Position numbers and translations under genes: made by a program. Under the pieces are notes generated by a model that saw nothing but the letters and a program-made list of their open reading frames with translations, was not told where the DNA came from and did not search any database. 64,000 bases of DNA from the IMG/VR virus record IMGVR_UViG_3300024346_000004, one strand, 5' to 3'. Origin of the DNA: a virus (taxonomy: Duplodnaviria > Caudoviricetes). Of the stretch, positions 35,174-42,081 are shown piece by piece; positions within the stretch are counted from its first letter, which is position 1; the number at the start of each line of letters is the position of its first letter.

Positions 35174-35713
35174 ATGTTCAAATTTATTTCATTCTATCCA
35201 CAAGTTAATAAAGAAGAAACAATACCTAATAATAATATATTGTGGATGTGTACTTATAAATTACTTGGAGATCAAATTCAGATCCCATTCGAGTTATTAC
35301 ACTTTTTGAATTCTTGTGATTGTCCATTACCTGTAAAGCATTATTTAGAACAAATGGACTATTATGATCTGAATATTGAATTTAACTCTGATTATCAAAA
35401 GCAATATTGTATGTATGATGATGACGATATTATATTAATTGTAAATATCAGAGCTTTACATGTTAACGAAAAGAAACTGAAAATTGACGTTCCATCTACA
35501 TTAGCTACTAAATTACTAACATTGATGAATTTATCAATGGATGGAATTTTACATTCAGAAAAGATGCAAAAGAGAATTCTAACGATGATGGGTGACTCTG
35601 ATGCATCTTTTATATATTCCGATGATGTAATGGAATATTTAGCTTCTTTAGAAGAGCTATGCGAACATTGTATGCTTTATGAATGTAATGTTATGTGGTC
35701 GCAGTCTGAGTAA
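35174..35713 (+). CDS. hypothetical protein
   Basis: 179 aa ORF. Confidence 0.6.
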   Translation: MFKFISFYPQVNKEETIPNNNILWMCTYKLLGDQIQIPFELLHFLNSCDCPLPVKHYLEQMDYYDLNIEFNSDYQKQYCMYDDDDIILIVNIRALHVNEKKLKIDVPSTLATKLLTLMNLSMDGILHSEKMQKRILTMMGDSDASFIYSDDVMEYLASLEELCEHCMLYECNVMWSQSE

Positions 35714-36611
35714 GCAAATATCTTTCAGACTCCAAAGCTGCCATACATCCTGAACCTGCTGATGTTATTGCTTGTTTATAATGTTTATCTGCAACATCCC
35801 CGCAAGCAAATAATCCTGGAATATTAGTTTTTGTGTTAACAGTAGAAATATATCCATCAGATTCTACAATGTTAAAATGCTTCACTAATGATGAATTAGG
35901 TATATTTCCAATTGCTACAAAAACACCACTTACTGATAATAATGATTCTTTTTCAAGAACATCATTATGTAGGATCACAGCATTTACTTTATCATCTCCA
36001 ATAATTTGCTTGATTACAGTATTTTCATACACAGTAATATTCTCTGTATTGAAAACCTTATTCACCATAATTTTAGATGCTTTATAGGATGAGGAACGAT
36101 TAATAAGCTGAACAGAAGAACAGATTTTACTAAGATACAAGGCTTCTTCCATAGCAGTATCACCAGCACCCACTACTACTACATTTTTGCCTTTGTAGAA
36201 AAATCCATCACAGGTAGCACAAGATGTAACTCCTCTGCCTAAAAATTCAGACTCTCCAGGCACAGATAACCATTTAGGAGAAGCACCAGTACAAAAAATA
36301 ACAGATTTATATTCTTCAGTAATTCCATCTGATGTTACTAAAAATTTATCACCTTGTTTTTCTAATTCTGAAACATCTTGATAAATCATTCTAGTACCAA
36401 ACCTTAATGCTTGTTGTTCCATTTCATTCATCAAGTCTGGCCCTAAAATCCCATCCTTAAAACCTGGGTAATTTTCTACTTCTGTGGTGTTCATTAATTG
36501 ACCACCTTGCATAAAACCTGTATATAACACTGGACTTAAATTAGCCCTAGAACAATAGATGGCAGCTGTATATCCAGCTGGTCCACTACCAATAATTGCG
36601 ATATTTTCCAT
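35691..36611 (-). CDS. trxB: thioredoxin reductase
   Basis: IIGSGPAGYTAAIY, CATCDG, GAGDTAMEEA, GLFACGDV, QAITSAGSG. Confidence 0.95.
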   Translation of the reverse strand: MENIAIIGSGPAGYTAAIYCSRANLSPVLYTGFMQGGQLMNTTEVENYPGFKDGILGPDLMNEMEQQALRFGTRMIYQDVSELEKQGDKFLVTSDGITEEYKSVIFCTGASPKWLSVPGESEFLGRGVTSCATCDGFFYKGKNVVVVGAGDTAMEEALYLSKICSSVQLINRSSSYKASKIMVNKVFNTENITVYENTVIKQIIGDDKVNAVILHNDVLEKESLLSVSGVFVAIGNIPNSSLVKHFNIVESDGYISTVNTKTNIPGLFACGDVADKHYKQAITSAGSGCMAALESERYLLTQTATT

Positions 36612-39108: not shown

Positions 39109-40366
39109 GCATAAACTCCTGGTATCTAACTACTTCATATTCTTGCAACGAATGACTATAGATATTATCACCAATACAAATAAAACCGATAACATTTGCA
39201 GCTAAAACACTTTCTAAATTAGCTTTACTACATATGACAAAAGGATTCTTCACTGCGCCATATTTTCTTAAAACTAAATATTTTTCTAAATTATTATATT
39301 GTTCCATAAGTGTTTCATTAAGCGTAACTCCTACTTCGAAATTACCACCTAATATATTCAAAACACTATATAAATATTTGATATCAATTTCACTAAAGAA
39401 AAACCAATCAACATCCTTATTATCTAACATTATATTTCTGTATATTGACATACTAGATTTATTACTATATAAATCATTAACTGTATGCTGATTAATCATA
39501 GTAAATTTAGATATAAATTTATAAGGACAAGTTATTTCTTTTCTATCTCTGTTAACTAATGCTTCCCAGTTATGAAGTGTATTAACCGCATCTTCATAAG
39601 TGACATCAAATTCAAGATCTATTAAAGTAGGCTTGATTAATAATCTTTTAAAAGGAGACAATAAGTTAAATTCTTTATTAGAGATACTTATTACTGGTTT
39701 ATTTTTTACATGTAACCAATAGATTAAGTTGTTTGGTAAAGTGATAATCAACTTAGCCTTCTCTGCAAATAAAGCTACACCTTCCGCACTACTGAATTTA
39801 TCCCTCAAATTAATGAAATTAGGGTACTTTATATCATTATATCCCTGATTACCTTGACCGATTAAAATTACTTTGTTATTAGGGAAAAATTCACATACTT
39901 CATTTAAAAATTCTGGCCAATATTTCCATTTATTTTCATCAGGAGTGGAATGATTAGAAGATGGTTGAAATAAAATAAAATCTTCGTAATCTGGTAAATA
40001 TTCATAAGCTCTTGATGAATAATTATATGTGTCTAATAATGATAAATCTTCACCGCCAGATACACTTAATTGAATTGATGTATATTCTCTATCTTGTGGC
40101 AAATTAAAATAAACTTTGTATTCTTTTATTTGTGTTTCTGTTTTCCAAGGAGAACATAGATTTACAAAACTCTGCCAATAAATAGATTCTGCGGGTGTGA
40201 ATAAATAATGCTCACAATTATCAACGAAATCTTGAGCTAAAATAAATTCTTTTAGTTCTGGAAATGGACCTAAAAGAATAATATTTCTAATGTTTCTTCT
40301 TTTAGCATTGGACAGGGAAACAAATACATCTCCCCATCCTCCACCAGTAATACCCCAATTATCCAT
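39086..40366 (-). CDS. glycosyltransferase (GT9-like)
   Basis: GGWGD, ILFQP, NKWKYW, VILIG, INLRDK. Confidence 0.55.
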   Translation of the reverse strand: MDNWGITGGGWGDVFVSLSNAKRRNIRNIILLGPFPELKEFILAQDFVDNCEHYLFTPAESIYWQSFVNLCSPWKTETQIKEYKVYFNLPQDREYTSIQLSVSGGEDLSLLDTYNYSSRAYEYLPDYEDFILFQPSSNHSTPDENKWKYWPEFLNEVCEFFPNNKVILIGQGNQGYNDIKYPNFINLRDKFSSAEGVALFAEKAKLIITLPNNLIYWLHVKNKPVISISNKEFNLLSPFKRLLIKPTLIDLEFDVTYEDAVNTLHNWEALVNRDRKEITCPYKFISKFTMINQHTVNDLYSNKSSMSIYRNIMLDNKDVDWFFFSEIDIKYLYSVLNILGGNFEVGVTLNETLMEQYNNLEKYLVLRKYGAVKNPFVICSKANLESVLAANVIGFICIGDNIYSHSLQEYEVVRYQEFMHGRRIKN

Positions 40367-41282
40367 TTAAGATTTCTAATTTAGTAGCATGAATTACAGG
40401 ACGAACTAAAGTTAATTTCATAGCTTCATCTCTCATTACTTCATCTGTAAAATCTGCTTCGGACTTTACAGAATCAGTGTGGACAATTAATCTAAATCCC
40501 GCATCCTTGATTAGTTTTTGATATAGATAAAGAAGAGATGCGGATTTATTTTCTAAGACAAAGAAAGCCTTAAGATGAGAAGATAACCATTCTTGACCAC
40601 ATATTCCATCGCTCTTTGTAACAACCCAGTTCTCAGGATGCAAAAGAGCTAAATCATATCTAGTATCTAAAGATTTTACAGATTGGACAGCTGTTTCATC
40701 ATTAGTAGCTTTAATAACAACTTCTCCATTGAAGAAATCAATAATATTTTTAATACTAGACAATGGTTCTGAAATTGATCTCTTGTAAATATCCAAAGCA
40801 GAATCAAGAATGTTTTGTGCTTCTTCTAATTTATTTTCATCTAATAACTCAAGAAGTTTATAATGATCATCTAATCTTCCTGCTAGTGATTTAATATATT
40901 CTTCTACTTCTAATTCAGACATATAAATCATAGGGGATTCAGAATTATTAATTAGCTTAGGCTCTACAACACTAAATTTACATTCTGATTCAATTTGTAT
41001 TCTAAAATATCCCCAAGCTGCATGATCAATATTTAGAAATAATTCATGATGCAGATTACCGTTTTCAGCAAATAAATCTGTAGGAACAATCTGAAATGGG
41101 TTGTGTACATTAGTATCGCAAAGTCCTAGATTTACTGTTAAACCAGCTAATCTTTGTGCAATATGTACGAGATTTTTATTATCGTCAATCCAAGAGTAAA
41201 TACCAGCAGTTAGAGCTTTTTCAGTATCTATGGATTGACTATTCTTTTTCTTGAAGCTTACGCCATTACTAATATTGTTCAT
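40359..41282 (-). CDS. hypothetical protein
   Basis: 307 aa; TATAAT 6 nt upstream of the ATG. Confidence 0.65.
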   Translation of the reverse strand: MNNISNGVSFKKKNSQSIDTEKALTAGIYSWIDDNKNLVHIAQRLAGLTVNLGLCDTNVHNPFQIVPTDLFAENGNLHHELFLNIDHAAWGYFRIQIESECKFSVVEPKLINNSESPMIYMSELEVEEYIKSLAGRLDDHYKLLELLDENKLEEAQNILDSALDIYKRSISEPLSSIKNIIDFFNGEVVIKATNDETAVQSVKSLDTRYDLALLHPENWVVTKSDGICGQEWLSSHLKAFFVLENKSASLLYLYQKLIKDAGFRLIVHTDSVKSEADFTDEVMRDEAMKLTLVRPVIHATKLEILNG

Positions 41283-41301
41283 AGATATATTATACAGAGT
41301 T

Positions 41302-41336
41302 AAAAAGGAATGAGCAAGGTTAGACTTACCTTGCTC
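41302..41336 (-). terminator. intrinsic terminator closing the large ncRNA
   Basis: minus strand gagcaaggt-aagtcta-accttgctc followed by attccttttt. Confidence 0.65.
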
Positions 41337-42047
41337 TTATGATCTATTTAATGGGATTACATCACTCGCAAATATGATTTGCCCATTTGTCCACTATTAC
41401 TAGTAAGATCATACAGTGTCCTATTTATACTGGAGGCGGCCCAGTCTAATGTTGGTTTCCTAGTTATATCAGAACGTATACTCAATTGCGATGAATAAGG
41501 TTCTGAATTAAGATTTACACTTTTTTATTTATAGTTCCTGAATGTATTTCTTAAATGTTTCGACAGTCACTGCTTACTTCCAACACGAAACGAGTCTATT
41601 TATGGGTTACTAAATACGCTGATATTGCGATTACATACCCTACTCTACAAGAATGTGCTCGTTTTGTCACTTCTTCACAGAAATATGACACATTCCATGC
41701 CTTTCACTTTCACGAAGTTACCAGGCGTGATTTTGAGATTAATACGACTGTTATATCGTTTCACCTCTAATCATGCATAAAAGCCTTTTGCCGTGTACAT
41801 CAGACCTTTATACTACTCTTACTCTTCAGATTTCGATGTTCGCACAAATTAAGTATGATTGCTGCCACCTTAATTTACATCTTCAATCATAGTTCCACAT
41901 TCTATTGCAAAACCTTAGAGAGATGAGCTTGCTTGAATGACCCTGAGTTGGGCGGGAGCTGTAGAGAATAGCTTTATCCCTTTTTTCACACTCTACTATC
42001 TTACGATGTCAAGCCACCGAGAATCACTTATTCAATTTTCAAAGTAC
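41302..42047 (-). ncRNA. large structured non-coding RNA (~740 nt), GOLLD/ROOL size class, family unassigned
   Basis: only long gene-free gap in the window; visibly more GC-rich; TATAAT at 42054-42059 (minus); many nested helices, GNRA loops, G-U pairs mostly favouring the minus strand; terminator at the 3' end. Confidence 0.7.
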
Positions 42048-42081
42048 AACACTATTATACATTATTCTTATTAAAATGCAT

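What the first reader, a model, noticed from the sequence alone, without database searches (positions are those of the whole stretch)
41302..42047. ~740 nt ornate non-coding RNA with its own promoter and terminator
Seen on the minus strand: the only long gene-free gap, bounded by TATAAT (42054-42059) and a 9 bp terminator hairpin. Helices read by eye: guagag/cucuac; gaaugug/cacauuc enclosing gucau/gugac; ucagaac/guucuga enclosing uauuca-ucgcaau-ugagua; long-range guguugg/ccaacau; acugg/ccagu; a 3' multiloop uaugaucu/agaucaua holding uacua-GUAA-uagug, aauggg/cccauu and gcaaau/auuugc. Most G-U wobbles work only on the minus strand. Known: GOLLD (~800 nt) and ROOL (~600 nt) are large phage-associated RNAs of unknown function, often near tRNA genes. 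No tRNA is adjacent here. Inference: a divergent GOLLD/ROOL member or a new class.
Basis: partly seen in the sequence, partly recalled or inferred. Interest (0 to 1): 0.85.

Follow-up and report, generated by a model that had tools for sequence, protein, structure and literature searches.

The report
Divergent GOLLD RNA of jumbo phage
The 745-nt gene-free stretch encodes a real, transcribed, intricately folded non-coding RNA that is a far-diverged, tRNA-less member of the known phage GOLLD RNA family, one that the standard Rfam model does not detect.

Summary
Window 41283-42081 is the only long ORF-free gap. On the minus strand it carries a conserved GTATAAT box, a ~745-nt RNA (about 42047-41302) and a 9-bp hairpin plus U-run.

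I collected 37 full-length homologues from freshwater metagenomes (58-98% identity). A 31-helix, 147-bp model, including four long-range or pseudoknot pairings, is 98.9% paired. Controls with partners slid 1-3 columns give 39-42%. 76 pairs show changes on both sides, against 11-16 in the controls.

In four metatranscriptomes from four studies, near-identical contigs cover only 41330-42041.

Rfam finds nothing in the window, even at E<=10. The family nevertheless grades into GOLLD (RF02032):
- The homologue in a 378-kb phage scores 127.9 bits (E 3e-34) against GOLLD.
- More distant relatives found with a 27-nt motif of the window's family score 163-202 bits (cut-off 150).
- Those relatives sit in tRNA islands and keep the same pseudoknots.
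- A model built only from Rfam-positive GOLLDs hits the window at the homologous place.

So the RNA is a divergent, stand-alone, tRNA-free GOLLD lineage of freshwater jumbo phages, not a new class. By homology it probably self-assembles like GOLLD. Its function remains unknown.

The same stretch was noted once more in this scan, on this same genome.

The parts
42054..42059 (-). -10 box TATAAT (GTATAAT with the preceding G), with no recognisable -35
   Evidence: Read. TATAA(T/G/A) is kept in nearly all 37 homologues. The same (G)GTATAAT box precedes this phage's tRNA genes and several ATG starts. The sigma-70 scan, which requires a -35, does not list it.
41302..42047 (-). The RNA gene, about 745 nt: a divergent GOLLD RNA
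   Evidence: Ends inferred from the -10 box, the terminator and the RNA contigs, which reach 42041 and 41330. One copy per genome in G000, G001 and G002.
42028..42047 (-). Conserved single-stranded 5' leader GUACUUUGAAAAUUGAAUAA, which resembles an rRNA boxA
   Evidence: Conserved as (U)GUACUUU(A/G)A(C/A)AAUUGAAUA in most homologues. It resembles GUUCAUUGAAAAUAUUGAAAUUGA, found about 100 nt upstream of 16S in three Flavobacteriaceae genomes. The core motif occurs at chance frequency in the phage genome and the leader is not kept in G001.
42004..42019 (-). Pk1 hairpin CGGUG-GCUUGA-CAUCG; its loop (42009-42014) pairs with UCAAGC at 41931-41936
   Evidence: Invariant within the subfamily. Both pairings covary in distant members: CGGCG/CGUCG with GCAUGG/CCAUGC in L064; GUUUAG/CUAAAC in L153 and L156; GCUUAA/UUAAGC in L159.
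41954..41980 (-). P2 hairpin; its loop UCUCUAC (41961-41967) pairs with GUAGAGU at 41642-41648 (Pk2)
   Evidence: 98.8% paired. L064 has ACUUCAC/GUGAAGU. L159 has GCCUAC/GUAGGU and L153/L156 have GCCUCC/GGAGGU, read by eye from the sequences printed.
41699..41953 (-). Rest of the 5' domain (P3 to P9), including the 12-bp P7 hairpin at 41775-41813
   Evidence: In the 5' domain alignment, 99.6% of cells are paired against 32-56% with slid partners, and 13 pairs change on both sides against 2-5. P7 has 8 of 12 pairs changed on both sides.
41650..41696 (-). P10/P11 hairpin, corresponding to the first hairpin of the Rfam GOLLD model
   Evidence: 100% paired with covariation. In L064 the homologous hairpin aligns to GOLLD model positions 1-62.
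41588..41664 (-). Pk3: AAACGAG (41658-41664) pairs with CUCGUUU (41588-41594), crossing P10. The span encloses P12 (41637-41640/41604-41607) and its short insert
   Evidence: Seven of 7 pairs are kept with entirely different sequences in L003, L007, L064, L151, L153, L156 and L159. G001, L151 and L159 carry a tRNA at the site of the P12 insert.
41449..41586 (-). Pk4a: GUGUUGG (41580-41586) pairs with CCAACAU (41449-41455). This is the [[ ]] pseudoknot of the GOLLD model and encloses the variable internal domain (41456-41567) with the CGCAA hairpin at 41469-41506
   Evidence: 100% paired, with 6 of 7 pairs changed on both sides. Kept 7/7 in L151, L153, L156 and L159. Aligned to the model's pseudoknot in L064.
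41413..41573 (-). Pk4b: GCAGUG (41568-41573) pairs with CACUGU (41413-41418), crossing Pk4a
   Evidence: 100% paired, with 4 pairs changed on both sides. Kept 6/6 in L151, L153, L154, L156 and L159 with other sequences.
41339..41445 (-). 3' domain: P14 hairpin (41429-41445), AGUAUAAAUAGG, and the P15 multiloop holding P16 (GUAA loop), P17 and P18
   Evidence: In the 3' domain alignment, 98.4% of cells are paired against 31-48% with slid partners, and 20 of 27 pairs change on both sides against 2-7. The model built from Rfam-positive GOLLDs hits 41316-41497.
41302..41336 (-). Terminal hairpin GAGCAAGGU-AAGUCUA-ACCUUGCUC plus a U-run. It corresponds to the last GOLLD hairpin (loop UAAUCUCA) and serves here as an intrinsic terminator
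   Evidence: Found by the terminator scan and in 37 of the 38 sequences scanned; the one without it, L024, matches neither model. All stem pairs covary while the loop is conserved. The loop is kept in distant GOLLDs that lack a U-run.

Best explanation
The gap holds a stand-alone gene for a GOLLD RNA (Rfam RF02032). It belongs to a lineage so diverged that the Rfam model no longer detects it.

Shown:
- The sequence is conserved as one copy per genome in a clade of freshwater jumbo phages.
- It folds into about 31 helices with four long-range or pseudoknot pairings.
- It is present in metatranscriptomes as a discrete piece that excludes the flanking genes.
- Its 3' half (41696-41312) corresponds helix for helix to the conserved 3' region of GOLLD.
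- Its 5' half corresponds to GOLLD's less conserved 5' region.

Inferred:
- Transcription starts about 7 nt after a -35-less GTATAAT box of the type that also precedes this phage's tRNA genes.
- The conserved leader may act as an rRNA-type boxA, protecting the long untranslated transcript from Rho.
- Transcription stops at the last GOLLD hairpin, which in this lineage has gained a U-run.
- By homology with GOLLD env-38, solved by cryo-EM as an RNA-only 14-mer cage (PMC12286853), the RNA probably self-assembles into a multimeric shell (my odds about 0.55).

What the shell does is unknown for the whole family. Unlike typical GOLLDs, this lineage is neither next to tRNA genes nor carries one inside. 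If it has a cargo or partner, that need not be a linked tRNA.
For: Reality of the RNA:
- 204 homologues of the flanking protein were found, and gene-free gaps of about 800-870 nt lie beside them.
- 48 metagenome loci matched a two-block pattern, giving 37 distinct full-length copies in 15 clusters at 58-90% identity.
- RNAalifold predicts 130 pairs, 67 with changes on both sides.
- Tool counts: 5' domain 99.6% paired against 32-56% slid; 3' domain 98.4% against 31-48% slid.
- The whole 147-bp model is 98.9% paired against 39-42% slid. 76 pairs change on both sides against 11-16, and 0 of 300 shuffles reach the observed values.
- G-U cells are 10.6% and A-C cells 0.2%.

Expression:
- 19 RNA runs from 17 studies hold 36-60% of the stretch's sampled words.
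- In 4 runs from 4 studies, every contig of 99% identity or more lies within 41330-42041. The flanks have no cover apart from three low-depth pieces of about 91% identity in X5.

GOLLD membership:
- My model R1 finds the RNA in G001 at 113.7 bits and R2 at 86.8 bits.
- That same G001 RNA matches GOLLD over model positions 1-416 at 127.9 bits, E 3e-34.
- A 27-nt motif of the window's family retrieves 13 viral loci.
- R2 hits six further viral loci at 48-65 bits, besides G001's own. An HMM of the window family hits five of those six.
- Four of them pass the GOLLD gathering score at 163-202 bits. L154 scores 138 bits and L160 40 bits.
- Model R3, built only from the four Rfam-positive GOLLDs, hits window 41316-41497 on the minus strand (20.1 bits, E 0.0016). 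It hits subfamily members L017, L003, L022, L031 and L011 at 29-46 bits.
- Pk1b, Pk3, Pk4a and Pk4b are kept in those GOLLDs with wholly different sequences.
- As in GOLLD, the 3' model reaches further than the 5' model.
Against: - The defining Rfam model gives no hit on the window, on G002 or on six subfamily members, even at E<=10 or E<=1.
- The direct reverse hit on the window itself is weak (20 bits). Membership therefore rests mainly on intermediates.
- No tRNA is adjacent. The nearest lies 83 kb away in the record.
- Contigs cannot show the strand or the exact ends, and the runs were chosen because they hold this stretch.
- Cage formation is untested for this lineage.
- The boxA reading is weak. 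The core motif occurs at chance frequency in the genome. It is absent from the G001 leader. The phage NusG gene is missing from G001 and G002.
Confidence: 0.85

Rival explanations
1. A new class of large phage RNA unrelated to GOLLD, with the resemblances being convergent or limited to a shared module.
For: There is no Rfam hit on the window or its subfamily at E<=10. The 5' model R1 does not find canonical GOLLDs. There is no tRNA context.
Against: GOLLD scores rise without a break through relatives, from 40 to 202 bits. Model hits run in both directions. The order of elements is colinear and four long-range pairings sit at homologous positions. The G001 RNA matches the window family over 800 nt (nhmmer 209 bits) and GOLLD over the full model.
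Confidence: 0.05
2. It is a GOLLD relative, but it works as a protein-bound scaffold or decoy, or as a ribozyme, rather than as an RNA-only cage.
For: Many invariant unpaired stretches exist. The terminal-hairpin loop is conserved whether or not a U-run follows. The internal domain differs from the GOLLD consensus. GOLLD was reported to bind ribosomes in pull-downs (PMC12286853). The family's function is unknown.
Against: No conserved neighbouring gene. The 307-aa neighbour is not adjacent in G001 and has no Pfam, PHROG or PDB-fold match. GOLLD env-38 assembles without protein at 12.5 nM (PMC12286853).
Confidence: 0.3
3. A non-functional spacer, a decayed gene, or a cis-acting leader of the downstream 307-aa gene.
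For: It lies upstream of, and on the same strand as, the 307-aa gene in the window.
Against: The covariation and conservation described above. There are stops in all frames. It has its own terminator, followed by another GTATAAT box immediately upstream of the gene's ATG. Other genes lie between it and the 307-aa homologue in L003 and L007, and it is elsewhere in G001.
Confidence: 0.01
4. A divergent ROOL RNA.
For: Similar size, phage origin and multiple pseudoknots.
Against: No ROOL match was listed for any of the loci scanned, at gathering or E-value thresholds. All links lead to GOLLD.
Confidence: 0.01

Closest known systems
[quoted passage not shown]
   Same: - Phage-encoded, about 750-800 nt, and found in lake metagenomes.
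- A conserved 3' region in the same order: first hairpin, pseudoknot, GNRA hairpin followed by GUGGA(U/C)AA, and a last hairpin with a UA(A/G)UCU(C/A)A loop.
- A less conserved 5' region and a variable internal part.
- Linked to Rfam-positive GOLLDs by model hits in both directions and by intermediates.
   Different: - Not detected by RF02032 at all.
- No tRNA next to it or inside it; the site where relatives carry a tRNA holds a 29-nt insert.
- The internal domain is shorter, variable and A-rich.
- The last hairpin has gained a U-run and acts as a terminator.
- It is a stand-alone gene with its own -10 box among protein genes of a jumbo phage of about 360 kb.
- Its 5' domain is strongly conserved within the lineage.
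ROOL RNA
   Same: A large, ornate, phage-borne, abundant RNA with pseudoknots and a variable linker. It forms an RNA-only cage (PMC12286853).
   Different: No sequence or structure match was found in any scan. It is a different family.
rRNA operon leader boxA (binding site for NusB/NusE antitermination)
   Same: The 5' leader GUACUUUGAAAAUUGAAUAA resembles GUUCAUUGAAAAUAUUGAAAUUGA in Flavobacteriaceae rrn leaders. From memory, it also resembles E. coli UGCUCUUUAACAA. Its position at the start of a long untranslated RNA fits that role.
   Different: No binding has been tested. The core motif is at chance frequency in the genome. The leader is not kept in G001. The host is unknown.

Membership tests
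GOLLD (RF02032) | Match to the Rfam covariance model at or above the gathering score (150 bits) | tested here: not met
   No hit on the window at gathering or at E<=10. None on six subfamily members at E<=1.
GOLLD (RF02032) | Homology to sequences that do pass the model, by intermediates and by hits in both directions | tested here: met
   L064 matches R1 at 113.7 bits, R2 at 86.8 bits and GOLLD at 127.9 bits. R2 hits L151, L153, L156 and L159 at 48-65 bits, and these score 163-202 bits on GOLLD. R3, built from those four only, hits window 41316-41497 at E 0.0016 and subfamily members at up to 46 bits.
GOLLD (RF02032) | Architecture of the conserved 3' region: first hairpin, pseudoknot, GNRA hairpin plus GUGGAUAA, nested multiloop, last hairpin with UAAUCUCA loop | tested here: met
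   P10/P11, Pk4a, P15-P18 and the terminal hairpin covary in the window family. They align to the model's elements through L064. Distant GOLLDs keep them.
GOLLD (RF02032) | A 5' region less conserved than the 3' region (PMC12286853) | tested here: met
   R1 (5' domain) finds only G001 and a 21-bit trace in L159. R2 (3' domain) finds seven viral loci.
GOLLD (RF02032) | Location in phages or prophages, often beside tRNA genes or with a tRNA inside | tested here: not met
   The phage location is met (IMG/VR record). No tRNA lies in the 64-kb window, and the nearest is 83 kb away. Relatives do sit in tRNA islands or carry a tRNA inside.
GOLLD (RF02032) | RNA-only 14-mer cage (cryo-EM of env-38) | not testable with these tools
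   Known only from PMC12286853. No oligomer prediction for RNA is available here.
ROOL | Match to the Rfam ROOL model | tested here: not met
   No ROOL match was listed in any scan.
Intrinsic (Rho-independent) terminator | G+C-rich hairpin followed by a U-run on the transcribed strand | tested here: met
   Found (9 bp, 5 G-C pairs, tail AUUCCUUUUU). Present in 37 of the 38 sequences scanned. The stem covaries. RNA contigs do not pass it.
rRNA-type boxA leader | boxA consensus near the 5' end that is bound by NusB/NusE | tested here: inconclusive
   Sequence likeness to Flavobacteriaceae rrn leaders and conservation. Against this: chance frequency in the genome, absence in G001, and phage NusG present only in G000. 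Binding is not testable here.

The most novel reading that the evidence does not exclude
GOLLD is much broader than Rfam shows, and this lineage is a tRNA-free form of it. It is a core, single-copy, abundant RNA gene of widespread freshwater jumbo phages. In it, the embedded-tRNA site has shrunk to a short stem-closed relic and the transcript has gained rRNA-style features (a boxA-like leader and its own terminator). If so, the function of the GOLLD shell can be separated from linked tRNAs. Still more divergent lineages may also exist; the L150/L152 group shares only the 27-nt motif.
Probability: 0.35. Interest if true: 0.6.

Novelty: new member of a known kind. Interest (0 to 1): 0.5.

Why it matters
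GOLLD is among the largest bacterial or phage RNAs whose function is unknown, and its cage structure was solved only recently. This finding adds four things.
- The reference model misses whole lineages. Scores fall from 202 bits to nothing along a chain of clear homologues, so surveys based on it undercount GOLLD.
- A lineage exists in jumbo phages of about 360 kb that is decoupled from tRNA genes. That constrains ideas in which linked tRNAs are the cargo.
- The RNA is recovered in metatranscriptomes from 17 studies, while its neighbouring genes were absent or barely covered in the four runs examined. It is therefore likely made in quantity in nature.
- About 45 diverse sequences now support the 5' domain and four long-range pairings. 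These could be compared with the intermolecular bridges seen by cryo-EM.

It is not a new kind of RNA.

Tried and rejected
- GenBank phages: no DNA match (blastn) and no match to the 307-aa neighbour (tblastn).
- Relatives cannot be drawn for a virus record.
- The 426-aa neighbour gave no viral relatives.
- The plain 17-mer scan gave one true locus and one chance locus, L012. L024 from the metagenome scan has no terminal hairpin and matches no model.
- A mis-spaced motif pattern found nothing; this was my error. A second pattern found only G001.
- The two-block pattern found nothing in 185,579 species genomes. R1 found nothing in 151 Bacteroidota genomes. These are not proof of absence.
- RNAalifold paired the 5' leader with GAAGUG (A3 columns 28-36 with 408-415). 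I rejected this: it shows no change on both sides, it competes with the covarying P10, and it is not possible in L064.
- A single-column covariation scan was swamped by clade splits and was not used.
- The 307-aa neighbour has no Pfam or PHROG family. Its AlphaFold model (pLDDT 79.5) has no PDB fold match at E<=0.001.
- A link to the phage NusG was considered. The gene is absent from G001 and G002.
- My working reading of a 'new RNA class', held up, was overturned.
- Literature searches found no earlier description of this lineage.
- Parts of the laid stretch without contig cover are not evidence of silence.

Full report
**What is in the sequence**

The window is part of a 165,921-bp IMG/VR virus record that CheckV rates 46% complete, which implies a jumbo phage of roughly 360 kb. 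Positions 41283-42081 form the only long stretch without an ORF; the next largest gap is 266 nt. Every frame is full of stops, and no single stop codon accounts for them. On the minus strand a TATAAT box lies at 42054-42059. A 9-bp hairpin with a U-run lies at 41336-41302, and it is the only terminator-like site in the region. Folding of the single sequence is only mildly better than shuffles, with z = -2.6 on the minus strand and -1.67 on the plus strand. Rfam gives no hit in the window at the gathering scores, and none in the gap at E<=10.

**Homologues**

The 307-aa protein encoded just downstream has 204 relatives. Contigs carrying them show gene-free gaps of about 800-870 nt nearby on the same strand, homologous to the window's gap at both ends. 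A two-block pattern taken from invariant stretches retrieved 48 metagenome loci, mostly from lakes. From all loci I obtained 37 distinct full-length copies in 15 clusters, with 58-90% identity between clusters. Each has a TATAA-type box, a conserved 5' leader, and a terminal hairpin with a conserved loop, a covarying stem and a U-run.

**Structure**

RNAalifold predicts 130 pairs, 67 of them with changes on both sides. It also showed two crossing sets of helices.

My final model has 31 helices and 147 pairs. On 36 distinct sequences it is 98.9% paired, against 39-42% when partners are slid 1-3 columns. It has 76 pairs with changes on both sides against 11-16, and none of 300 shuffles reaches the observed values. 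The tool's own counts agree:
- On a model-based alignment of the 5' domain, 99.6% of cells are paired against 32-56% slid, and 13 pairs change on both sides against 2-5.
- For the 3' domain, 98.4% are paired against 31-48% slid, and 20 of 27 pairs change on both sides against 2-7.

G-U cells make up 10.6% of paired cells and A-C cells 0.2%, which fixes the minus strand as the RNA strand.

Four long-range pairings stand out:
- The loop of the first hairpin (GCUUGA) pairs with UCAAGC 75 nt downstream.
- The loop UCUCUAC pairs with GUAGAG(U) 320 nt downstream.
- AAACGAG pairs with CUCGUUU, crossing P10.
- GUGUUGG/CCAACAU crosses GCAGUG/CACUGU.

Two helices read by eye are not conserved: the local guagag/cucuac, and gcaaau/auuugc.

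**Expression**

Nineteen RNA runs from 17 studies hold 36-60% of the sampled words of the stretch. I laid contigs from four metatranscriptomes of four studies on 3.6 kb around the gap. All contigs of 99% identity or more fall inside 41330-42041. One 698-nt contig lies wholly within the RNA. The flanking genes are uncovered except for three low-depth pieces of about 91% identity from a relative. Contigs cannot show the strand or the exact ends, and the runs were chosen because they hold this stretch. I therefore read this as good but not final evidence for a discrete, abundant transcript. Its limits fit the -10 box and the terminator.

**Identity**

Up to this point the RNA looked like a new class. 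Seven diverged members gave no Rfam hit, and the literature searches found no description.

A covariance model of the 5' domain (R1) then found one copy each in three phage records. One is a complete 378-kb phage (G001) whose flanking-protein homologue is only 40% identical and lies about 20 kb from the RNA. That copy, L064, keeps nearly every helix through compensating changes, including the long-range ones.

A 27-nt motif of the window's family (the P14 hairpin plus AGUAUAAA.AGG) retrieved 13 viral loci. My 3' model R2 hits six of them, besides G001's own copy, at 48-65 bits. R1 does not. These loci sit in tRNA islands, and in L151, L159 and G001 a tRNA lies inside the RNA.

Rfam then gave the answer. 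L156, L153, L159 and L151 match GOLLD (RF02032) at 202, 198, 186 and 163 bits, where the gathering score is 150. L154 scores 138 bits and L160 40 bits. L064 scores 127.9 bits (E 3e-34) over the whole model, while the window's own locus and G002 still give nothing.

In that alignment the GOLLD model corresponds to the window RNA as follows:
- It begins at my P10/P11 hairpin.
- Its annotated pseudoknot is my Pk4a.
- Its GNRA hairpin followed by GUGGAUAA is my P16.
- Its last hairpin, with the UAAUCUCA loop, is my 'terminator'.

A model built only from the four Rfam-positive GOLLDs (R3) hits the window at 41316-41497 on the minus strand (20.1 bits, E 0.0016). It hits subfamily members at 29-46 bits. 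An HMM of the window family hits the GOLLD loci at E values from 5e-11 to 9e-7. The distant GOLLDs keep Pk1b, Pk3, Pk4a and Pk4b with wholly different sequences.

The window RNA is therefore a divergent GOLLD. It fails the family's operational test (the Rfam score) and lacks the usual tRNA context. It meets the tests of homology and architecture.

**How it most likely works**

Shown: the fold, the single-copy conservation across a deep phage clade, and the presence of the RNA in metatranscriptomes.

Inferred:
- The start lies about 7 nt after a -35-less GTATAAT box. The same box type precedes this phage's tRNA genes and several ATG codons. One contig reaches 42041.
- The leader GUACUUUGAAAAUUGAAUAA resembles the conserved element about 100 nt upstream of 16S in three Flavobacteriaceae genomes. 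It may recruit Nus factors so that a 745-nt untranslated RNA escapes Rho. This step is weak: the core motif is at chance frequency in the genome, the leader differs in G001, and the phage's NusG gene is absent from G001 and G002.
- Termination is at the last hairpin.
- By homology with GOLLD env-38, which forms an RNA-only 14-mer cage at nanomolar concentration (PMC12286853), self-assembly is the most likely mode of action. I put this at about 0.55. The main alternative is a protein-bound scaffold or decoy, or a ribozyme.
- The biological role is unknown for all GOLLDs.

**What differs from known GOLLDs**

This lineage has no tRNA beside or inside it. The nearest tRNA is 83 kb away. The site where G001, L151 and L159 carry a tRNA holds a short stem-closed insert. 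The internal domain is short, A-rich and variable, although the window keeps a two-tier hairpin with a CGCAA loop as in the GOLLD consensus. The last hairpin doubles as a terminator. The 5' domain is highly conserved within the lineage.

No copy was found in 185,579 species genomes with the exact pattern, nor in 151 Bacteroidota genomes with R1. The host is unknown. The phage's thioredoxin reductase is closest to Bacteroidota enzymes at about 50% identity.

**Verdict**

This is a new, divergent member of a known family, not a new class. Its interest is moderate. It exposes a blind spot of the reference model, extends GOLLD to freshwater jumbo phages, and offers a tRNA-free form for experiments on a family whose function is still open.

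Noticed in passing
L150, L152, L155, L157, L158, L161 (IMG/VR contigs): Six contigs share the exact 27-nt P14 motif inside ORF-free stretches of 1.5-2.4 kb (GC 0.35-0.36). L150-L161 gave no R1 or R2 hit. R3 was run on L150 and L152, and Rfam GOLLD on L150, L152 and L161, also without a hit. They may be a still more divergent GOLLD-like lineage.
   Followed up: partly
L064:1959-2029 (G001); L151:11646-11719; L159:4891-4963; homologous site in the window 41608-41636: In three GOLLD lineages a tRNA gene lies inside the RNA, just after the first 3'-region hairpin. The window family has a short insert there, closed by GGGU/ACCC. In most clades the insert begins with AUAGCU, like a tRNA D-arm start. 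It gave no tRNA model hit.
   Followed up: partly
window 41289-41295 (minus) and many places in the record: A second GTATAAT box follows the terminator immediately and ends 6 nt upstream of the ATG of the 307-aa gene. (G)GTATAAT also precedes three tRNA genes and several other ATG codons at about 8-20 nt. This suggests -35-less promoters and very short or absent mRNA leaders.
   Followed up: partly
G000:C1:85808-86119 (minus), outside the window: The phage encodes a NusG-domain protein (73.7 bits). Related phages G001 (100% complete) and G002 (88%) have none.
   Followed up: yes
window 41824-41891 (minus): Most family members carry UAUGG and CCUAAG on opposite strands of the P4b/P5/P6 junction, the letters of the classical 11-nt GAAA-tetraloop receptor. 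The window has UAUGA/UCUGAAG. Covariation places the G of CCUAAG in helix P4b, so it is probably not a canonical receptor.
   Followed up: partly
window 40359-41282 (minus): The 307-aa neighbour belongs to a well-conserved family (204 relatives, 55-99% identity) with no Pfam, PHROG or PDB-fold match. The AlphaFold model has mean pLDDT 79.5.
   Followed up: partly
window 35691-36611 (minus): The phage thioredoxin reductase is closest to Bacteroidota enzymes (Flavobacteriaceae, Bacteroidales) at about 50% identity. This is a weak hint at the host phylum.
   Followed up: no
L146-L149 (rrn leaders of Lutibacter and two Tenacibaculum genomes): A conserved element AAGUUCAUUGAAAAUAUUGAAAUUGACAGCG lies about 100-110 nt upstream of 16S, preceded by TAnnTTTG-type promoters. 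It is likely the boxA region of this phylum.
   Followed up: no
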